Assembly (NCBI RefSeq): GCF_035594765.1
Contig: NC_085847.1
Coordinates: 1 to 64,000, forward strand
Direction: 5' to 3'
Length of the DNA: 64,000 bases
DNA from: Anolis carolinensis
Lineage: Eukaryota
A program made the position numbers and the translations under genes. The notes under the pieces are model-generated. The model saw only the letters and a list, made by a program, of their open reading frames with translations. It was not told where the DNA came from and did not search any database. Below, piece by piece: positions 14,301-63,992 of the stretch (its first letter is position 1; every line of letters starts with the position of its first letter).

Positions 14301-16632
14301 ATGGGTCAAGTTTGGTCTTGATCAGACATTGGTGGGGGTCACAGTGGTCTCGGGAAGTGAGTGAAGATACTGCAAGTCCCATCGTCCATGGTCCGAATTC
14401 TTCCAAACCACACCGGGATGTAGAGTGGGTCATGGGGACTGTATGGGTCAAGTTTGGTCTTGATCAGACATTGGTGGGGGTCACTGTGGTCTCGGGAAGT
14501 GAGTGAAGATACTGCAAGTCCCATCGTCCATGGTCCAAACTCTTCCAAAACACACCAGGATGTAGAGTGGGTCATGGGGACTGTATGGGTCAAGTTTGGT
14601 CTTGATCAGACATTGGTGTGGGTCACAGTGGTCTCGGGAAGTGAGTGAAGGTATTGCAAGTCCCATCGTCCATGGTCCGAATTCTTCCAAAACACACCGG
14701 GATGTAGAGTGGGTCATGGGGACTGTATGGGTCAAGTTTGGTCTTGATCAGACATTGGTGGGGGTCACAGTGGTCTCGGGAAGTGAGTGAAGATACTGCA
14801 AGTCCCATCGTCCATGGTCCAAACTCTTCCAAAACACACCGGGATGTAGAGTGGGTCATGGGGACTGTATGGGTCAAGTTTGGTCTTGATCAGAGATTGG
14901 TGGGGGTCACAGTGGTCTCAGGAAGTGAGTGAAGGTATTGCAAGTCCCATCGTCCATGGTCCAAACTCTTCCAAAACACACCAGGATGTAGAGTGGGTCA
15001 TGGGGACTGTATGGGTCAAGTTTGGTCTTGATCAGACATTGGTGGGGGTCACAGTGGTCTCGGGAAGTGAGTGAAGGTATTGCAAGTCCCATCGTCCATG
15101 GTCCGAATTCTTCCAAAACACACCGGGATGTAGAGTGGGTCATGGGGACTGTATGGGTCAAGTTTGGTCTTGATCAGACATTGGTGTGGGTCACAGTGGT
15201 CTCGGGAAGTGAGTGAAGATACTGCAAGTCCCATCATCCATGGTCCAAACTCTTCCAAAACACACCGGGATGTAGAGTGGGTCATAGGGACTGTATGGGT
15301 CAAGTTTGGTCTTGATCAGACATTGGTGGGGGTCGCTGTGGTCTCGGGAAGTGAGTGAAGGTATTGCAAGTCCCATCGTCCATAGTCCAAACTCTTCCAA
15401 AACACACCAGGATGTAGAGTGGGTCATGGGGACTGTATGGGTCAAGTTTGGTCTTGATCAGACATTGGTGGGGGTCACAGTGGTCTCAGGAAGTGAGTGA
15501 AGGTATTGCAAGTCCCATCATCCATGGTCCAAATTCGTCCAAAACACACCGGGATGTAGAGTGGCTCATGGGTGCTCTGTGTTCCACGTTTGGTCTCATT
15601 CAGGCATTGATGGGGGTTGCAGTGGTCTCGGGAAGTAAGTGAAGATACTACAAGTCCCATCATCCATGGTCCATCCCCCCCAAACAGCACCCAGGTGTAC
15701 AGTAGGATACGGGGACTCTATGTGCCAAGTTTGGTCTCATTCAGGCATTGGTGGTGGTTGCAGTGGTCTTGGGAAGTGAGTAAAGCTACTGCAAGTCCCA
15801 TCGTCCATGGTCCAAACTCTTCCAAAACACACCAGGATGTAGAGTGGGTCATGGGGACTGAATGGGTCAAGTTTGGTCTTGATCAGTCATGGGTGTGGGT
15901 CACAGTGGTCTCGGGAAGTGAGTGAAGCTACTACAAGTACCATCATCCATGGTCCAAACTCTTCCAAACCACACCGGGATGTAGAGTGGGTCATGGGGCC
16001 TCTGTGTCCTAAGTTTGGTACTGATTCGTTGTTACTAAGAGTCGCAGTGCTCTCAGGAAGCCAGTGAAGGTATTGCAAGTCCCATCGTCCATGGTCCATC
16101 CCCCTCCAAGCAGCACCCAGGTGTAGAGTAGGACATGGGACCTCTGTGTACCAAGTTTGGTCTTGATCAGGCATTGGTGGGTGTTACAGTGGTCTTGGGA
16201 AACGAGTGAAGGTATTGCAATTCCCATCGTCCATGGTCCATCGTCCTCCAAACTTCACCAGGGTATAGAGTGGGTCATGGGTGGTCTGTGTTCCAAGTTT
16301 GGTCTTGATCAGGCATTGGTGGGGGTCGCAGTGGTCTCGGGAAGCAAGTGAAGGTACTGCGAGTCCCATTATCCTTGGTCTGTCCTCCCTCAAATTGTAC
16401 CAGGATGTAAAGTGGGTCATGGGGGGTATGTCTGCCAAGTTTGGTCCTGATCCGTCATTAGTTAGAGTAACTGTGGTCTGTCAGAGACACAGTGTTTGAA
16501 AGTACTGCAAATCCCATCATTCATTCATGCAGACAGAAGGAGGGAATGGGGAAGGAGGGAAGGAGAGAGAGAGGAGGAAGGGCAGGCCTGGAGCGCCCTC
16601 CTGTGGCCGCTCTCCAGAAGCACATCATACCC

Positions 16633-16681
<49 letters not shown>

Positions 16682-19600
16682 CCTAACCCAAAATGCAGAC
16701 TATGCAAGGAAACCGACGACACCATGGATCCTATCCTCAGCTGCTGTAAGAAAATCGCACAGACAGACTACAAACAGAGGCACAACTCTGTGGCCCAAAT
16801 GATCCATTGGAACTTATGCCTCAAGTCCCACCTGCCAGCAGCAAAGAACGGGTGGGATCACAAACCTGCAAAAGTCTTGGAAAATGAGCACGCAAAGAGA
16901 CTGTGGGACTTCCGAATCCAGACTGACAAAGTTCTGGAACACAACACACCAGACATCACAGTTGTGGAAAAGAACAAGGTTTGGATCATTGATGTCGCCA
17001 TCCCGGGTGACAGTCGCATTGAAGAGAAACAACAGGAAAAACTCAGCCGCTCTCAGGACCTCAAGATTGAACTGCAAAGACTCTGGCAGAAACCAGTGCA
17101 GGTGGTCCCGGTGGTGATGGGCACACTGGGTGCCGTGCCAAAAGATCTCAGCCGGCATTTGGAAACCATGAAAAGGAACAAAATCTGGCTCCCAGTATTA
17201 AAAAAACTCCAAAATCAGAACAGTAAATAAGGAGCAACACTCTGAGGGCAGAGGAGCCCCAAGGACGGCTAATGACTCTGAAGGATGCCCCCCAGGCAAG
17301 AGACAAACCTTTCCAATGCTAATTAGGGTAATTCAATACCTCACAACCTCTGAGGATGCCTGCCATAGATGTGGGCGAAACGTCAGGAGAGAATGCTTCT
17401 GGAACATGGCCAGACAGCCCGAAAGACAGACAACAACCCAATATGCCAGGGTGTCTGTGGGGGCCAGTCTCAAGAAGCCCATCCTACCATTGCGTTGAGT
17501 TGGTCCTGGGGGTTCTGTGTGCCAAGTTTGATCCAGATGCATCGTTGTTTGGAGGTTTGGAGGAGGATGGACCACGGGTGATGGGATTTGCAGTACCTTC
17601 GCTCACTTCCAGAAAACACTGTGGCCCCCACGAATGACGGACCGGGACCAAACTTGGCACACAGACCCCACATGACCCACTTTACCTCCTGGTGAAGTTT
17701 GGGGGAGGATGGAGCACGGATGATGGGATTTGCAGTACCTTTACTCACTTCTAGAGACCACTCTCATTTCTAGAGACCACTGCGACCCCCACGAATGATG
17801 GACCCGGACCACACTTGGCACACAGACCCCCCATGACCCATTAATACATCCTGGTACACACCGACCCCCCACCCCATGACCCACTTTACGTCCTGGTGTG
17901 GTTCTAGGGAGGATGGACCATGGATGATGGGATTTACAGTACCTTAACTAACTTCCTAAGACCACTGCTAGCCCCACGAACGACGGACCCGGACCAAACT
18001 TGGCACACAGACCCCCCCATGACCCACTTTACATCCTGTTGTAGTTTGGGGGAGGATGGACCATGAATGATGGGATTTATAGTACCTTCACTCACTTGCA
18101 GAAACCACTGTGACCCCCACAAACGACGGACCGGGACCAAACTTGGCACACAGAGTCCCCATGACCCACTTTACATCCTGTTGTAGTTTGGGGGAGGATG
18201 GACCATGGATGATGGGATTTGTAGTACCTTCACTCACTTGCAGAAAACACTGTGACCCCCACAAATGACGGACCGGGACCAAACTTGGCACACAGAGTCC
18301 CCATGACCCACTTTACATCCTGGTGTGGTTCTAGGGAGGATGGACCATGGATGATGGGATTTATAGTACCTTCACTCACTTGCAGAAAACACTGTGACCC
18401 CCACAAATGACGGACCGGGACCAAACTTGGCACACAGAGTCCCCATGACCCACTTTACATCCTGGTGTGGTTCTAGGGAGGATGGACCATGGATGATGGG
18501 ATTTATAGTACCTTCACTCACTTGCAGAAAACACTGTGACCCCCACGAATGACGGACCGGGACCAAACTTGGCACACAGAACCCCCATGATCCACTTTAC
18601 ATCCTGGTAAAGTTTGGTGGAGGATGGACCATGGATGATGGGATTTGTAGTACCTTCACTCACTTGCAGAAAACACTGTGACCCCCACAAATGACGGACC
18701 GGGACCAAACTTGGCACACAGAGTCCCCATGACCCACTTTACATCCTGGTGTGGTTCTAGGGAGGATGGACCATGGATGATGGGATTTATAGTACCTTCA
18801 CTCACTTGCAGAAAACACTGTGACCCCCACGAATGACGGACCGGGACCAAACTTGGCACACAGAGTCCCCATGACCCACTTTACATCCTGGTGTGGTTCT
18901 AGGGAGGATGGACCATGGATGATGGGATTTATAGTACCTTCACTCACTTGCAGAAAACACTGTGACCCCCACAAATGACGGACCGGGACCAAACTTGGCA
19001 CACAGAGTCCCCATGACCCACTTTACATCCTGTTGTAGTTTGGGGGAGGATGGACCATGGATGATGGGATTTGTAGTACCTCACCTGCTTGGGATCTGAC
19101 TTCAAGAGACCACGATTGACGGATCAAGACCAAACTTGGCACACAAACCCCCATGACCCACTCTACATTAATCATATATATTATACTAGCTGTGCCCGGC
19201 CACGCGTTGCTGTGGCGTTGTCTGGTGGTGTTGGTGAGAAATTGTTGAGGTAGTGGTGGTATTGAATGTCTGTTGTATGGTTGTCTTTATGTTTGGTATG
19301 CACACTGAAGTGGATTATATGGCAATGTGGACTCAAGATAATATAAGATTCTCAATGGGTTATATAGCTGTGTGGAAGGGCCTTGAGTCTACACTGCAAT
19401 ATAATCCAGTTAAAATCTGATAATCTGTGGAAGAGGCCTAAGTGAGTCCTAACTGTGCCTGTCCCCTGGGCTAAGTAGGTTGCTAGGAGACCAAGTGGGT
19501 GGAGCTTAGCCTTCAAACTGGTAGCAATTGGATAAAAACAATTATTCCTTTCCCTTTAATTAGGACTTTATTTTTTCTTTTCTTTTTGTTGTCTCAACCT

Positions 19601-52487: not shown

Positions 52488-54165
52488 CTACCACTTGAGG
52501 AAATCCCGCACTCGGCTCCAGAGCTTGGTGATCCACAGGTTGACTCCTAAGTCCGTCAGGTACTGGATCTCGGGGGTCACCATCTTGCGGCACAGCTTGC
52601 GGTGCTTCTTGTGGATGCGCTTCTTGAGGTTGTAGCCCAGGATGGACTTCTTGCCCAGGGGCTGCCAGGGCTGCATGGCGGACTCCTGGATGGCGTTGGC
52701 GTCCACGGGGCGGCCCCCGTCGATGCAGATGCGGGTCATCTTCTCGTTCTCCTCCTGGAGGCGGGCCACGTCCTCGGCCATGCGCTCCCTCCCGTAGGCC
52801 TCCACCTTGCGCCAGAACGTGGCGTTGAAGTGCCGGTAGAGCTTGGCGTCAATGAGGTTCCAGGCGGTGGCCTTCTGGTAGAGCTCGCCCGTCAAGCGGG
52901 AGACGGCGGAGTCCTTCCGGGCGTTGAGCTTGAAGTAGAGGACGTCCTCCAGCTCCCAGCAGAGCAAGTCCTTGAGGAGCACCAGGGACTCGTCAAAGTA
53001 CTCCAGGAGCATGACCAAGTGGAAGCGCCGGTCGATCTCTTGGATGGACTGCTCCACCCGAGGGCTGCTGGGGTTCAGGGTGTTGTCGTAGCCCAGGTCA
53101 AAGAAGAGCAGGTTCTGCAGGTAGTGGGCGTTGAAGCCGTTGGGGTCGTAGTAGCGCCAGGGGTCCCGCAGGAACTCGGCCAGCTTGTCCTCCCCGGAGA
53201 GCTTCCAGGTCAAGGGAATGATGCGCCCAAAGTAGTGGAAGGAGGACTCAAGGAGGTACGCCGGGTCCCGCAGCACCGTCACAAAGGTGGCGCCGGCCGG
53301 CAGCAGCTTGCGCACCTCCTCGTACTGGAAGCGCATGTGGTTGCAGATGATGTTGAAGCACATGCCCGGGCGGTAGTCCCGCACCTGGCTGCGCTCAAAG
53401 AAGGACGGGTAGTAGAAGTCGTTGCGGCCGTTGGGGAAGGCAAACTTGAGGCGGTGCTTCTCCCCAAAGCGGAGGAGGATGTTGAGGATGGTGCTGCTGG
53501 CCGTCTTGTGGGTCTTCATGAACATGATGTCCCGCTTGGGGAGGCACCTGTGGCCCGAGAGGCTGGCGTTGGAAGACGGGGCAGAGCAAGCCGAGGGGAT
53601 GGGCGTCCTGGAAAAGAAAGGCCAAGGGTCAAGGGTTAGGATGCTCCGGCTCCTGTCCCAAAACTATCCCTTCCAAGCATTGAATGCTCACTAGGACTAT
53701 CCTGTGGTCAAATTAGACGAGGTGAAAATAGATGAGTTGAAATGCAATGACACCCATCTCCTAGTGAGGAGGTGTAGGACTTTCCTAGTTCTCCAACCCA
53801 GCACTCTTCACAAAGGGAACTGCAAGGGACATCTAGTCTAACCCCTCTACTCTTTGAGGAACTGCATTGAGGAGGCCCTTACTGTCTGAAGAACCACGTC
53901 CCAATACCAGCCGCCCACATTTTGCAGTGAGGCAGTTCACGCCGATCAGGGAGACCCTTCTGCGGCAAGGATGCCCGAACTCTCCTTCCAAAGGGAGAGA
54001 CCTCCCCTCCGTCCCCCTCCCCCAAGTGTGGATGCAGGGCCAGCTCACTCACTCGGTCGTGCTGGCTTGCAAGGGCGAGAGGGCGTAGGAGTAGAGCAGC
54101 AGCATGAGGCTGGTCAGGAGGGTGCCCAGCGCCAGGCCCTTGCCCATGGAGCGCCCGCTCTTCAT
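52488..54165 (-). CDS. GAL3ST1: galactosylceramide sulfotransferase, copy A (~410 aa); exons 54165-54053 and 53607-52488
   Basis: Type II TM N-terminus SMGKGLALGTLLTSLMLLLYSYA; 5'-PSB KTHKTASST; FPNGRNDF; LRDP..ESSFHY; C-terminus TPEIQYLTDLGVNLWITKLW..RDFLKW; intact frame and GT-AG intron. Confidence 0.93.
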
Positions 54166-54729
54166 CACCTGCAGCCGGAGGAGTCCGGGGGGAAAGACCG
54201 TCAGCATTGGACTCAGGAAGGGTGGAGGGCGGGCCTTCCGGCACACTCTGTCCATGCTTCTCTTCCCACCCTTCTTCTCACATCCTCTCCCAGAGGGTGA
54301 GCCCTCGGTCACGGGGTGGGGAGGCTTCCAAAACCAATAATCCACGTTAGGGAGGATTCCAACAACAATGGCAAACACTGAATGCCATAATACAGGATTA
54401 TAAACATATTCAAAGAGTAAACCAACCGGTTTCCAAGAGAAGCCAACTTATAACCCCCAAATTAGATAATAACATCACCTTTCACCTAACATAACATCAC
54501 CTAAAAGCATCCAAGACCTTAATCATCTATTTATTTGGCTCTGCTGGTTCGGGTTTGGTCAGCTTCGTTGGCTCTGTGATTTTTTTGGTTGCATCATCAT
54601 TGTAATCATTATTTTTTAATCAAATAAATAGGTGCTTAACGTCTTGGATGCTTTGAGGTGATGTTATGTTAGGTGATAGGTGATGTTATCTAATTTGGGG
54701 GTTAGAAGTTGGTCTCCAATGTTGGCTTC

Positions 54730-55589
54730 TCGGCATGTGCGATCCATGAAAAAAAAGGTCCAATACTCGCTTCCAAAGTAGGGGGCGCTGGCGCTTCATT
54801 TCTAAAGTCATTTCCTATTTTTGAGCCAAAAATTTCAGAAGTTTCCAAAAATTCAGAATATTCGGAATTACTTCGTTAATGCCAGACGTGCATGCGCAAT
54901 TGCGAAAAACAGCACCGGGGAGGGGGGATTTTACAAGACTCTCCCGCCCTCACTTTTTGAGCTATCCTGGTCAAATTTGGCACAGTGGTAGAACACATTC
55001 AACTCTGCTAGCTCACCAAATTATAGAATGTTTCCTTTATCCTCTGATTTTTGGTGATTTTTCATAGCTTATATAAGAAAACATTTTCTAATAATTGCAG
55101 AAATCTATTCCTGCTTTGAAATTCTTGTTTCCTGTTTCATTGGGTTATCTTTACTTTGAAAGTTCTCATTCTACTTGGGAAACTTTGTTTTTGTGGCTGA
55201 AACTCTGTGAAATTGGTGGACACTGTGCTGCCGCAATGTGCAATGTGCTGCCAGCCACCGAGGGCTGGGATTCTGGAGCGATGATGGGTCTTGTAGTACT
55301 ACACAACCCCACTCAGGACGTACAAGCCCCTCCCCTCACAGGAACGTGCACTCCGATTGGTCAGGGAGGCAACCCCCTGCTAGGCTGCTCTTCCCTCCAA
55401 AACAAGTTTGGTTGCGTTAAAAAAATGGCTTTATTTATTACCGATACAATTTTGAAAAAATTACAAAAATTATCTATAAGTGTTCAAAATCGCGGGTTAG
55501 ATAGCCCTCGTCGGGACCACATCCGCAAGTAGGAATAAATACGATTTTATTACGAAAACCGAGATTTATGGTATTTCCGCCCATCCCTA
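54730..55589. mobile_element. non-autonomous hAT-like DNA transposon inserted in the right palindrome arm
   Basis: Imperfect inverted termini TCGGCATGTGCG / CGCCCATCCCTA; 8-bp target duplication TTGGCTTC (54722-54729) / TTGACTTC (55590-55597); the left arm shows the empty site. Confidence 0.7.
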
Positions 55590-55922
55590 TTGACTTCTCT
55601 TGGGAACCGGTTGGCTTGCTATTTGACTATGTTTACCGTCCTGTATTATGGAACTCAGTGTTTGCTACTGTTTGCAGGAATCCTCCCTAAGGTGGATTAT
55701 AACATAATACAACTGTATTTGTATTCCGCCCTGTCTCCCCAAGGGGAGTAGTATTTTTGGAAGCCTCCCCACCCCGTGACCGAGGGCTCACCCTCTGGGA
55801 GAGGATGCGAAGAGAAGGGTGGGAAGAGAAGCATGGACACAGTGTGCCGGAAGGCCCGCCCTCCACCCTTCCTGAGTCTAATGCTGACGGTCTTTCCCCC
55901 CGGACTCCTCCGGCTGCAGGTG

Positions 55923-57618
55923 ATGAAGAGCGGGCGCTCCATGGGCAAGGGCCTGGCGCTGGGCACCCTCCTGACCAGCCTCATGCTGCTGCTCTACTCC
56001 TACGCCCTCTCGCCCTTGCAAGCCAGCACGACCGAGTGAGTGAGCTGGCCCTGCATCCACACTTGGGGGAGGGGGACAGAGGGGAGGTCTCTCCCTTTGG
56101 AAGGAGAGTTCGGGCATCCTTGCCGCAGAAGGGTCTCCCTGATCGGCGTGAACTGCCTCACTGCAAAATGTGGGCAGCTGGTATTGGGACGTGGTTCTTC
56201 AGACAGTAAGGGCCTCCTCAATGCAGTTCCTCAAAGAGTAGAGGGGTTAGACTAGATGCCCCTTGCAGTCCCTGGAGTTCCCTTTGTGAAGAGTGCTGGG
56301 TTGGAGAACTAGGAAAGTCCTACACCTCCTCACTAGGAGATGGGTGTCATTGCATTTCAACTCATCTATTTTCACCTCGTCTCATTTGACCACAGGATAG
56401 TCCTAGTGAGCATTCAATGCTTGGAAGGGATAGTTTTGGGACAGGAGCCGGAGCATCCTAACCCTTGACCCTCGGCCTTTCTTTTCCAGGACGCCCATCC
56501 CCTCGGCTTGCTCTTCCTTCCGTGCCCCGTCTTCCAACGCCAGCCTCTCGGGCCACAGGTGCCTCCCCAAGCGGGACATCATGTTCATGAAGACCCACAA
56601 GACGGCCAGCAGCACCATCCTCAACATCCTCCTCCGCTTTGGGGAGAAGCACCGCCTCAAGTTTGCCTTCCCCAACGGCCACACGAACTTCCACTACCCG
56701 TCCTTCTTTGAGCGCCGCCAGGTGCGGGACTACCGCCCGGGCATGTGCTTCAACATCATCTGCAACCACATGCGCTTCCAGTACGAGGAGGTGCGCAAGC
56801 TGCTGCCGGCCGGCGCCACCTTTGTGACGGTGCTGCGGGACCCGGCGTACCTCTTTGAGTCCTCCTTCCACTACTTTGGGCGCATCATTCCCTTGACCTG
56901 GAAGCTCTCCGGGGAGGACAAGCTGGCCGAGTTCCTGCGGGACCCCTGGCGCTACTACGACCCCAACGGCTTCAACGCCCACTACCTGCAGAACCTGCTC
57001 TTCTTTGACCTGGGCTACGACAACACCCTGAACCCCAGCAGCCCTCGGGTGGAGCAGTCCATCCAAGAGATCGACCGGCGCTTCCACTTGGTCATGCTCC
57101 TGGAGTACTTTGACGAGTCCCTGGTGCTCCTCAAGGACTTGCTCTGCTGGGAGCTGGAGGACGTCCTCTACTTCAAGCTCAACGCCCGGAAGGACTCCGC
57201 CGTCTCCCGCTTGACGGGCGAGCTCTACCAGAAGGCCACCGCCTGGAACCTCATTGACGCCAAGCTCTACCGGCACTTCAACGCCACGTTCTGGCGCAAG
57301 GTGGAGGCCTACGGGAGGGAGCGCATGGCCGAGGACGTGGCCCGCCTCCAGGAGGAGAACGAGAAGATGACCCGCATCTGCATCGACGGGGGCCGCCCCG
57401 TGGACGCCAACGCCATCCAGGAGTCCGCCATGCAGCCCTGGCAGCCCCTGGGCAAGAAGTCCATCCTGGGCTACAACCTCAAGAAGCGCATCCACAAGAA
57501 GCACCGCAAGCTGTGCCGCAAGATGGTGACCCCCGAGATCCAGTACCTGACGGACTTAGGAGTCAACCTGTGGATCACCAAGCTCTGGAGCCGAGTGCGG
57601 GATTTCCTCAAGTGGTAG
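55923..57618 (+). CDS. GAL3ST1: galactosylceramide sulfotransferase, copy B (~413 aa); exons 55923-56035 and 56490-57618
   Basis: Same motifs as copy A, but FPNGHTNFHYP..ERRQ and 3 extra stem residues (SFR); intact frame and GT-AG intron. Confidence 0.93.
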
Positions 57619-58099
57619 GCGTGGGTGCCGGCCCCTCTCCCTGACCCACTTATCTTTCCAATTCCCCTTCCCTTCCTTTGATCCTTCCTTTTATTTTTGA
57701 GGGGTCAGCCATGTTGTCATCGGGCCACCCGAGAGCGTGCCGACCGGCTTCAACGCCAGACCGCATCGACAGGCAACTAGATCGAGCAGCCCGAGAAAGA
57801 AAAGATCTCACCATCGCCTCGGCAAAAGCCCCCGTGTGAGCTTATTGACACAGACACTAGGAAACGGATGAGCCGTAACTGTTTGTCTGTCTGTCCTCCT
57901 TGTAGGTGGACTTCTCAATGTGATATCCCCCCCAATGTGTTGTTAATGCCTAAGCCCCAAATGATACAGTACTTCGCTTCAAGTGTGGAAAATTTGCTGC
58001 TTCTCTGGGGAAACAACTCCCCGAAGGACGGTGGTCCGGGAGATGTAATCCCAAGAGAGGCCTTTTCCCAGTTTGGGTTGAGAACAAGTGCGTTATCGA

Positions 58100-58590
58100 G
58101 TGTGTTTCTGGGGGCATTATCAGGGGCTTTTCTGGGTGCCTTTCTGGGTGTGTTTCCGGGTGCGTTACCAGGTGCCCTTCCGGAGGCGTTTCCGGGTGCC
58201 TTTCTGGGGGTGTTTCCGGGTGCCTTTCTGGGGGCGTTTCCGGGTGTGTCATGGGGGGTGCTTCCTGGTGTGTTACTGGGTGCCTTTCAGGGGGTGTTAC
58301 CAGGTGCTTTTCCAGGGGCGTTTCCGGGTGCCTTTCCGGTGGTGTTACTGTGTGCCTTTCCGGGGTGTCTTTCTGGGGGTGTTTCCAGGTGTGTTATGGG
58401 GGGCACTTCCGGGTGTGTTACTGGGTGCCTTTCCAGGTGTGTTACCGGGTGCTTTTCCAGGGGTGTTACTGTGTGCCTTTCTGGCAGCCTTTCCGGGTGT
58501 GTTACGAGGGAGCTTCCTGGTGTGTTACTGGGTGCATTTCCGGGGGCATTACCGTGTGCGTTTCTGGGAGCGTTACTGGGAACGGCCCTC
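58100..58590. repeat. 12-bp-based minisatellite 3' of GAL3ST1 copy B (reverse complement of the 51640-52458 family)
   Basis: GGGTGCCTTTCC / GGTGTGTTACTG units. Confidence 0.85.
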
Positions 58591-58775: not shown

Positions 58776-59237
58776 CCTGAAATCGGGTAAGCAACTGCAG
58801 GTGGCACAAAATCCGCTAGGGACGCCGTTGAGGTGCCGGGGCCTGGAGTGCCCAGGGAGGGTTGCGAGGGTGCCTCCCCACATCGCAGTTCAGCGCCAAG
58901 ACCCTCGGCGCTCCGCTCAGAGCGCTCAGCCAAGAAGGGAAGGGGCCATGTTCCAGAGGCATTCTCTCCTGACATTTCACATTTATGGTGGGCATCCTCA
59001 GAGGTTGAGGTTTGTTGGAGACTGGGGAAGAATCTACCTTTTATTTTTCAGTGATTGGTTTGGGGGGGGGTTGCCAAAATACTGTTTGCTTACACTTGAC
59101 AATTACCTAGGTAGTCTGTAGCTAGTTTGCTGATTGTCTGAACATGCACGGAGCCAAACAAGTGCACTTGACGTGCCTGCAGCCTTAACTCTCCGCTGCA
59201 GACGCAAAGGAAACAATAATTTTGCCCGGGGGTCCTC

Positions 59238-59480
59238 AGGGGGGTCGCGGGCCCCCGGGTCAACCTGACTTTCCGAGACATCTGTGGCAGCAGCCACCTT
59301 GGCCTGTGAGCCCACTCTCCAGAGACTTGAGCCAAAACAAATCATTACCTATATTCATAATAAAGGAGACATGATATATGAAAATAATGTATATTTGTAT
59401 TAATAATACAAGAGGGGACGGGGGACCACCGTGATGGACCCTCTGCGTTGAAATCCTTGACAATCCTCCCAATGGCCTCC
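59238..59480 (+). pseudogene. ALKBH2: diverged duplicate of the ALKBH2 3' coding end and 3' UTR/polyA region
   Basis: Encodes RGVAGPRVNLTFRDICGSSHLGL* versus ALKBH2 RGVVGPRVNLTFRDIRGSGHLGP*, followed by CCTATATTCATAATAAAGGAGA as at 51505; a further partial copy lies at 59500-59640. Confidence 0.85.
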
Positions 59481-59639
59481 TTGATTGACCCCTTGATTAA
59501 TTCATTACCTGTATTCATAATAAAGGAGATATATATATGATATATGAAAAGGATGTATATTTGTATTAATAATACGAGAGCGTTCTACTAGAAGGGGACG
59601 ATGGACCACCACAATGGACCCTCTCCGATGAACCCCTCA

Positions 59640-63992
<4,353 letters not shown>

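What the first reader, a model, noticed from the sequence alone, without database searches (positions are those of the whole stretch)
54168..55920. No room for an ancestral GAL3ST1 promoter: borrowed promoter or a 2-kb hairpin RNA
Seen: each ATG lies 3 nt after a splice-acceptor-like site (CTGCAG|GTGATG), yet only ~370 bp of arm separate it from the palindrome centre. The only notable CpG-containing segment in the middle is the hAT-like insert (GTGCATGCGC near 54889, GGGGGCGCTGGCGC near 54781). Known: mammalian GAL3ST1 uses upstream non-coding exons. Inference: either the transposon or spacer acts as a new bidirectional promoter, or B is spliced from ALKBH2-side (+) transcripts and A from USP30-side (-) transcripts. 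In the second case the pre-mRNA crosses the antisense twin and could fold into ~2 kb of near-perfect dsRNA, a substrate for ADAR or endo-siRNA production.
Basis: inference. Interest (0 to 1): 0.7.

Follow-up and report, generated by a model that had tools for sequence, protein, structure and literature searches.

The report
Promoterless GAL3ST1 palindrome on lizard X/Y
In the green anole, the two coding exons of the X-linked sulfatide enzyme gene GAL3ST1 were copied head-to-head, without the parent's promoter, into a chromosome tip that is likely shared by X and Y; the copies are still intact, are likely kept alike by gene conversion, and are likely read weakly from a new local promoter rather than as a giant hairpin RNA.

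Summary
Two GAL3ST1 copies form a fold-back palindrome (1.9-kb arms, 98% identical). Each ATG lies 3 nt behind an inherited acceptor. The parent gene, 5.8 Mb away on the same contig, shows that only 536 nt of intron were copied; its 5' exons (1.8-6 kb upstream) were not. The palindrome recurs on a second, Y-like contig inside a ~160-kb shared tip (likely pseudoautosomal), and a public run spans its centre. Flanks differ 15% from the parent (roughly 40-50 My), but the catalytic exon only about 1%, which points to gene conversion. All five coding indels keep the frame, yet every copy has a change at a near-invariant residue: relaxed, not absent, constraint. Read-through is disfavoured: splicing from the last ALKBH2 or USP30 donor makes an immediate stop, both neighbours have poly(A)-signal hexamers downstream, and the hairpin would bury the acceptor. 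No transcript, start site, small RNA or editing could be shown. Best reading: weak local promoter (0.45); silent copies refreshed by conversion (0.3). The hairpin RNA is geometrically real but unsupported (0.08).

The parts
52459..54333 (-). Arm A, homogenised part: GAL3ST1 copy A (ATG exon 54168-54053, intron, large exon 53607-52488; 410-aa open frame)
55755..57647 (+). Arm B, homogenised part: GAL3ST1 copy B (ATG exon 55920-56035, intron, large exon 56490-57618; 413-aa open frame; PF06990)
54337..54537 (-). Inner arm A: parent intron sequence no longer homogenised (7-15% from arm B, 9-14% from parent)
54521..54729 (+). Fold-back centre and stub of arm B, both parent intron; with 54443-54537 it forms a 95-bp inner inverted repeat (-152 kcal/mol as RNA, z -19.6); spanned without mismatch by a contig of run X3
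54730..55589 (.). Internally deleted hAT-type DNA transposon in arm B; 8-bp target duplication; family-borne NRF1-like (54888) and CTCF-like (54775) motifs; 8.2% from the family majority
55590..55754 (+). Inner arm B with a 51-bp repeat-derived insert (about 55698-55748) at which arm-to-arm homogenisation stops
54169..54333 (-). Candidate proximal promoter zone of A (mirror 55755-55919 for B): GC box at 54232/55856 and half-CRE at 54203/55885, both absent from the parent's matching intron; motif labels recalled, function untested
57648..58110 (+). Parent-derived 3' UTR kept by B only (15-16% diverged); lost from A
51640..52458 (-). 12/24-bp satellite behind copy A, matching a short tandem 12-mer in the parent's 3' UTR on the gene's sense strand only
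58100..58580 (+). Same satellite behind copy B, in mirror orientation; marks the original outer end of the palindrome (inferred)
59223..59496 (+). Direct duplicate of the ALKBH2 3' end (51388-51658; 18% diverged) with AATAAA at 59359, the first such hexamer downstream of B
50587..51521 (+). ALKBH2 coding exons (PF13532 on the last) and AATAAA at 51516; last donor phase 2
60785..62311 (-). USP30-type last two exons (PF00443 on the last; gene name from synteny and recall); last donor phase 2; ATTAAA at 60226, AATAAA at 59045

Best explanation
The locus is a fold-back duplicate of the two coding exons of X-linked GAL3ST1, lacking the parent's 5' exons, in a tip likely shared by X and Y; it is likely some 40-50 million years old, likely kept alike by gene conversion, and likely transcribed weakly and outward from a new promoter in the centre, with start sites predicted in the last ~200 nt before each ATG. 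Steps: (1) shown: only 536 nt of parent intron were copied, and the centre is parent sequence folded back; (2) shown: flanks 15%, introns 6%, catalytic exon about 1% from the parent; inferred: conversion from the parent and between arms; (3) inferred: some selection on the reading frame, hence some translation, with relaxed constraint because several copies buffer each other; (4) inferred and untested: the promoter is local, made from intron sequence, possibly helped by NRF1- and CTCF-like sites in the hAT, giving an unspliced short 5' UTR; germ cells are the likeliest place.
For: Parent alignment and 5' exons outside the copied segment. Divergence gradient: 3 of 225 synonymous sites against 93 of 605 flank sites, p 1e-10. 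One change shared by both C8 arms and absent from both C7 arms and the parent. Open frames and GT/AG sites in 4 of 4 copies. 5 of 5 coding indels in frame against 8 of 29 non-coding ones, p 0.005; 3 of 3 fixed ones, p 0.033 (indels counted by eye). A. sagrei has a second, open copy sharing R73H, F99L, Q247R. All 5 public models of the carolinensis copies begin in the unspliced arm, whereas 3 of 4 parent isoforms carry upstream-exon residues. Read-through donors give stops or a frameshift; only 3 weak donors lie in the spacer.
Against: No transcript of either copy was shown: 0 splice joints in 4 of 4 runs laid, contigs only. Every copy carries a change at a residue 92-100% conserved in 118 homologues and never seen there (F173L in both A copies; R115H/N116T/D117N in C7 B; loss of F222 in C8 B; R394C in C8 A). 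pN/pS 0.56-1.0 on few sites. Conversion from the parent can itself keep a frame open. Public models may start in the arm only because they lack RNA support; their N-terminal extension depends on one C that is missing in 3 of 3 runs covering it. No CpG island in the spacer; the CTCF-like match is not above chance (1 seen, 0.4 expected); CpG retention in the hAT ranks 3 of 27, not significant. In-frame indels between short repeats may be favoured by slippage.
Confidence: 0.45

Rival explanations
1. The copies are silent or nearly so. They have no working promoter, and their frames stay open because conversion from the X parent and between arms keeps overwriting damage; the palindrome in a recombining tip is a by-product.
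For: Conversion is needed anyway to explain 1.3% synonymous against 15% flank divergence. Lesions at near-invariant residues in 4 of 4 copies, and several in the sagrei copy. 5 fixed amino-acid changes where about 1 is expected at dN/dS 0.1, p 0.005. A has lost the parent's 3' UTR, and its first AATAAA downstream is at 49426, beyond ALKBH2's coding exons. No protein of C7 copy A among 12 of 12 cluster members.
Against: Three fixed deletions (18, 15, 6 nt) in the less converted ATG exon and stem are all in frame, with ATG and splice sites intact. Fewer fixed amino-acid changes than neutral (5 against 10.8 expected, p 0.04). An open duplicate in two A. sagrei annotations.
Confidence: 0.3
2. The copies borrow the neighbours' promoters: B is spliced from ALKBH2-driven RNA (most plausibly from a non-coding first exon near the UNG/ALKBH2 promoter at ~47150-47340) and A from USP30-driven RNA.
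For: Acceptor, branch-point-like motif and pyrimidine tract are retained. Both neighbours point towards the copy on their strand. ALKBH2's ATG also sits 3 nt behind an acceptor, so a non-coding first exon is likely. B is followed by a duplicated ALKBH2 poly(A) hexamer. HYDIN2 is a precedent for a start outside the duplication (abstract).
Against: Last donors give an immediate stop, ALKBH2 exon 2 a frameshift. The RNA must pass AATAAA at 51516 (and 54623, 55534). B's acceptor would be paired with the twin made earlier (70-nt duplex, -158 kcal/mol). No fused protein above 604 aa at E<=1e-170 apart from one unrelated gecko-group lizard model (weak evidence).
Confidence: 0.1
3. The point of the locus is double-stranded RNA: read-through across both arms folds into a ~1.9-kb hairpin, or antisense read-through pairs with GAL3ST1 mRNA, feeding ADAR or Dicer and tuning the parent gene.
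For: 98% complementary arms 1.42 kb apart; arms stay 99% identical to the parent's catalytic exon, so small RNAs would match it.
Against: Needs uncleaved read-through of about 6 kb past ALKBH2's hexamer; RNA past a used poly(A) site is degraded from its 5' end (established knowledge, recalled). It does not explain in-frame-only indels. Arm identity is explained by conversion. The letter differences seen in the runs are arm, parent or transposon alleles, not editing calls.
Confidence: 0.08
4. The palindrome or its second copy is an assembly artefact (fold-back chimeric reads, or a duplicated haplotig).
For: Fold-back chimeras occur in long reads (recalled); the window lies at a repeat-rich contig end. 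A qPCR study calls GAL3ST1 X-specific (passage), which would clash with Y copies if its primers lay in the shared exon; I could not see the primers.
Against: Arms differ by 17 substitutions, indels and old insertions. The same structure is on C8 at 99.5% with its own variants. A public run spans the centre exactly, and two runs hold the A-specific junction. An older annotation holds a duplicate-type protein. C8 carries its own intron-bearing RPL6.
Confidence: 0.02

Closest known systems
Sex-chromosome palindromes with arm-to-arm gene conversion (mammalian Y and X, avian W; PMC3403216, abstract)
   Same: Inverted gene copies on sex chromosomes, arms far more alike than their age predicts, haplotype-specific shared variants
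   Different: Arms only 1.9 kb and 98% alike; sits in a region shared by both chromosomes, not the sex-limited part; copies lack their promoter; a distant parent also appears to donate sequence
HYDIN2, a promoterless incomplete duplicate that adopted a new promoter (PMC5345166, abstract)
   Same: Ancestral promoter and 3' end left behind; relaxed selection; gene conversion with the parent
   Different: Here the whole coding sequence is copied twice head-to-head, the event is likely more than ten times older, and no transcript has been shown
Mammalian Gal3st1 intronic testis promoter driven by BORIS at CTCF sites (PMC10832218, PMC2975627, passages)
   Same: Shows that this gene can be started from an internal site in male germ cells; BORIS exists in reptiles (PMC5871936, passage)
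   Different: No CTCF-like match (<=3 mismatches) in the parent's 541 nt that were copied; the position of the mammalian exon 1f relative to the coding exons could not be read
Hairpin-RNA or inverted-pseudogene endo-siRNA loci (Drosophila hpRNAs, mouse oocyte pseudogene siRNAs; recalled)
   Same: Long inverted copies of a coding gene that could fold back and match the parent mRNA
   Different: Both arms keep open frames and splice sites; no spanning transcript or small RNA shown; neighbours end before the arms

Membership tests
GAL3ST1 (galactose-3-O-sulfotransferase 1) | PF06990 domain and closest relatives named galactosylceramide sulfotransferase | tested here: met
   E 1.7e-151; 97% to the parent, 88% to chicken and Sceloporus
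GAL3ST1 (galactose-3-O-sulfotransferase 1) | N-terminal hydrophobic anchor and intact two-exon frame | tested here: met
   4 of 4 copies
GAL3ST1 (galactose-3-O-sulfotransferase 1) | Catalytically active enzyme | not testable with these tools
   KTHKT and RDP motifs are kept (motif roles recalled), but each copy has a change at a near-invariant residue
Sex-chromosome palindrome (Y/X ampliconic type) | Inverted gene-bearing arms homogenised by conversion | tested here: met
   A-B 0-3% against parent-copy 15% in the same upstream segment, p 2e-4; variant shared by both C8 arms only
Sex-chromosome palindrome (Y/X ampliconic type) | Long arms (many kb) above 99% identity (threshold recalled) | tested here: not met
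   1.9 kb, 98.0%
Sex-chromosome palindrome (Y/X ampliconic type) | Location in the sex-limited or X-specific region | tested here: not met
   Inside a block shared by C7 (1-158 kb) and C8 (1-180 kb) at mostly 95-99%
Sex-chromosome palindrome (Y/X ampliconic type) | Testis-biased expression | not testable with these tools
   No run on record as RNA, no raw reads
Incomplete duplicate with adopted promoter (HYDIN2 type) | Ancestral promoter and 5' exons absent | tested here: met
Incomplete duplicate with adopted promoter (HYDIN2 type) | Mapped new start site and transcripts | tested here: inconclusive
   No joints in 4 runs of contigs
Hairpin-RNA / endo-siRNA locus | Long inverted complementarity | tested here: met
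Hairpin-RNA / endo-siRNA locus | One transcript spanning both arms; 21-23-nt RNAs or A-to-I editing | not testable with these tools
   Only assembled contigs were served
hAT non-autonomous element (spacer insert) | Short terminal inverted repeats and 8-bp target duplication | tested here: met
   Window 7 of 8; relative L033 8 of 8; family rule recalled
hAT non-autonomous element (spacer insert) | Link to a hAT transposase | not tested
   No autonomous partner was sought
Pseudoautosomal region | Terminal, collinear, near-identical block on X and Y | tested here: met
   ALKBH2 exon found only on C7 and C8; RPL6 with introns on both contigs, RPL6Y known
Pseudoautosomal region | Equal male/female dose and X-Y crossing over | not testable with these tools
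   No sexed reads or cross

The most novel reading that the evidence does not exclude
An X-hemizygous gene needed for meiosis in mice regained a place on the anole Y by jumping, promoterless, into the pseudoautosomal tip before the carolinensis-sagrei split; a hAT that landed at about the same time supplies a bidirectional NRF1/CTCF-type promoter for germ cells, and selection has kept a few copy-specific residues (R73H, F99L, Q247R) for some 40 My against repeated conversion from the parent 5.8 Mb away.
Probability: 0.15. Interest if true: 0.65.

Novelty: new variant of a known kind. Interest (0 to 1): 0.42.

Why it matters
If expressed, the locus is a small, testable case of three things at once: how a promoterless duplicate gains a promoter, how a short palindrome survives tens of millions of years in a recombining chromosome tip, and how an old, degenerate Y can regain a lost X gene through the pseudoautosomal region (males would carry 5 coding copies, females 6, not 1 and 2). 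It also locates a likely ~160-kb pseudoautosomal region in the green anole, where a qPCR survey had found none. If silent, it warns that conversion can keep dead duplicates looking alive. For practice: GAL3ST1 is used as an X marker in iguanian sexing, and short reads from its main exon cannot be assigned among five loci.

Tried and rejected
Expression from public runs: no RNA holder listed. Four runs were laid on 54340-56560 only, so the catalytic exon and the neighbours' exons were not covered. X3 and X8 cover the intron and unspliced donors and look like DNA; X6 covers the acceptor unspliced, kind unknown; X9 has depth in 6 of 30 bins, all on repeats; a filter drops some records, so holes prove nothing. 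Word shares of 0.21-0.30 in 6 runs resemble the 0.29 expected from parent exons alone, and 0.39-0.45 in 6 runs the 0.47 expected from copy exons, but two of the latter proved DNA-like: not used as evidence. Search for short spliced copy-type proteins: 0 of 15 candidates. Fusion proteins: none relevant. CTCF consensus scan: 7 matches at <=3 mismatches against 3.8 expected, 1 at <=2 against 0.4. CpG retention of the hAT: not significant. Tree of 15 proteins groups copies by species (support 92/91 and 80/81); one origin of all six duplicate rows is neither found nor rejected (AU p 0.064). Retention of an ancestral intronic promoter: no motif support, not excluded. Escape from meiotic X silencing as motive: the one passage seen ties that silencing to therian mammals; no support for anoles. 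Gene-level expression of the copies in papers: none found; 8 of 18 supplementary files of PMC5741051, including its tables, were not searched. PMC2863697 and PMC3982436 are not held. Earlier scan notes: none.

Full report
Setting. The window is G000:C7:1-64000, the start of an 11.08-Mb contig. Protein databases name the copy-B product 'galactosylceramide sulfotransferase-like [Anolis carolinensis]' on a contig of that length. The catalytic exon matches five places at 97-100%: two in the window, two at the start of C8 (1.317 Mb), and one at C7:5.845 Mb. C7 and C8 are collinear from their starts to C7 ~158 kb / C8 ~180 kb, mostly at 95-99%, and share nothing at 95% or more in the next 30 kb examined. 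The last ALKBH2 exon occurs only on these two contigs. Both carry an intron-bearing RPL6 at unrelated positions; RPL6Y is a known anole Y gene (passages of PMC5741051) and GAL3ST1 a known X gene (passages of PMC4232536). I infer C7 = X, C8 = Y and the shared tip = pseudoautosomal region; a ~0.25-Mb one is proposed for Sceloporus (passages). Dose and recombination were not tested.

Observation. Exons start at 54168 (-) and 55920 (+), ATGs 3 nt in. Arms 52459-54333 and 55755-57647 are 98.0% alike over 1894 columns. Against the parent, arm A extends to 54537 and arm B begins at about 54521, so the centre is parent intron folded back; B reaches 536 nt above the acceptor, A less. Parent isoforms in public annotation place their upstream exons at C7:5852908-5852305 and 5848813-5848685, that is 1.8-6 kb above the acceptor, and a transcript-based model spans 11.2 kb (supplementary row of PMC5381669). 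None of these was copied. The acceptor context is the parent's own. The structure is real: the same palindrome with its own variants is on C8 (99.5%), a 152-nt contig of run X3 spans the fold-back point with no difference, and runs X3 and X8 hold the A-specific junction.

Anatomy and history. Arm B was interrupted by an 860-bp hAT-type element (8-bp target duplication, 7 of 8; 5257 first-look candidates in the genome, 40 scored) and a 51-bp insert, where homogenisation stops. Both outer ends carry a satellite that matches a tandem 12-mer of the parent's 3' UTR on the sense strand (19 and 15 matches; 0 in three controls), so the original arms likely ran through the 3' UTR and A later lost it. 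A direct, 18%-diverged copy of the ALKBH2 3' end lies behind B and supplies its first AATAAA. Parent-copy divergence is 15-17% just upstream, 15-16% in the 3' UTR, 5% in the ATG exon, 5-7% in the intron and 0.9-1.4% in the catalytic exon, with 3 of 225 synonymous sites changed (against flanks p 1e-10, against introns p 0.004). At 1.8e-9 per site and year (passages of PMC9635203) the flanks give ~48 My (39-76 over the published range); a GC-rich tip may run faster, so this may be too old. The hAT is 8.2% from its family majority (27 rows), so it came early. The gradient needs conversion from the parent, unless synonymous sites (GC3 95%) are unusually constrained. Arm-to-arm conversion shows in a change shared by both C8 arms alone. 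A. sagrei has a second copy in two annotations that shares R73H, F99L and Q247R with the carolinensis copies, 3 of their 10 fixed derived changes. The tree groups by species and does not reject one origin (AU p 0.064): old origin plus conversion, or parallel origin. I could not see the sagrei locus.

Alive or dead? All four copies keep ATG, splice sites and a 410-413-aa frame. Five of five coding indels are in frame against 8 of 29 non-coding ones (p 0.005; fixed only p 0.033, counts by eye). Against this, each copy has a change at a residue 92-100% conserved in 118 homologues, and five fixed amino-acid changes fit neither strong constraint (p 0.005) nor neutrality (p 0.04) well (rough). Relaxed constraint on a redundant, weakly used set fits best; silence with conversion is the main rival.

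Which promoter? Read-through: the last donors of ALKBH2 and USP30 are phase 2, so the GAL3ST1 exon completes an Arg and then reads TGA, overlapping the ATG and 112 nt above the next junction, a decay substrate by the usual rule (recalled); ALKBH2 exon 2 joins out of frame. Only a non-coding first exon would give the enzyme, and it would have to skip three exons and AATAAA at 51516. In such RNA B's acceptor would be paired with the twin made earlier. Local promoter: no CpG island; the copies gained a GC box and a half-CRE 35-65 nt above the ATG that the parent lacks; the hAT family carries an NRF1-like and a CTCF-like motif (labels recalled), like the GCGCATGCGC motifs at the UNG/ALKBH2 promoter. 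Starts inside the hAT would face an AATAAA at 55534 (B) or a -152 kcal/mol hairpin (A), and only three weak donors exist, so starts near the ATG are likelier. All five public models of the copies begin unspliced in the arm, while three of four parent isoforms use upstream exons; this may only reflect missing RNA support, and their extension needs a C absent in 3 of 3 runs that cover it. Mammalian Gal3st1 has an intronic, BORIS-driven testis promoter and is needed for meiosis in mice (passages), which makes germ cells the place to look, but no CTCF-like site lies in the copied intron of the parent.

Direct RNA evidence is lacking: no served run is on record as RNA, and 4 of 4 runs laid on the spacer and 5' part of B gave no splice joint. 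That neither supports nor refutes expression, small RNAs or editing.

Novelty. The copies exist as automatic '-like' models. Five paper searches and a sixth on mechanism listed no description of the palindrome, the duplicates or this shared tip; subscription papers and bioRxiv supplements were outside reach. It works like a sex-chromosome palindrome (abstract) and like HYDIN2 (abstract) but fails the size and location marks of the first and lacks the transcript proof of the second. Verdict: real, old and undescribed; the promoter question is open, the hairpin branch is the weakest. Interest 0.42.

Noticed in passing
window 1-64000 and G000:C7:64001-158400 against G000:C8:1-180000: A terminal block shared by the X-like and Y-like contigs, ending abruptly near C7 158 kb; likely the green anole pseudoautosomal region, holding UNG, ALKBH2 and USP30. 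Its boundary and gene list were not worked out.
   Followed up: partly
window 51640-52458 and 58100-58580: A satellite that appears to have grown out of a tandem 12-mer in the GAL3ST1 3' UTR; the long ORFs over it (e.g. 51637-52635) are repeat artefacts.
   Followed up: partly
window 59223-59496 and 59505-59635: Two decayed direct copies of the ALKBH2 3' end with their AATAAA, between copy B and USP30.
   Followed up: partly
window 54730-55254; loci L033-L038, L059-L078: An abundant hAT-type family whose left part carries an NRF1-like and a CTCF-like motif in many copies; a possible genome-wide source of regulatory sites.
   Followed up: partly
window 56681-56692: Copy B on C7 has a cluster of changes (RNDFY to HTNFH) that reads as a compensated one-base shift in a near-invariant motif; absent from the other three copies.
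   Followed up: partly
window 55896 and mirror in A: C-run length polymorphism (6 in the assembly, 5 in three runs and the parent) that decides whether an upstream ATG is in frame; public models' N-terminal extension rests on it.
   Followed up: yes
window 11675-19081: Long ~142-bp-period tandem arrays in opposite orientations giving many ~80% inverted repeats; shorter on C8.
   Followed up: no
L008, L009 (G000:C3:242.59-242.82 Mb): Two distant GAL3ST-family paralogues on opposite strands about 230 kb apart, each match with one stop codon; possibly another inverted pair.
   Followed up: no
window 45754-49556 against C8 51439-56004: Order and orientation differ locally between C7 and C8 around the UNG/ALKBH2 promoter (48593-49556 matches C8 in reverse): a small inversion or repeat mismatch.
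   Followed up: no
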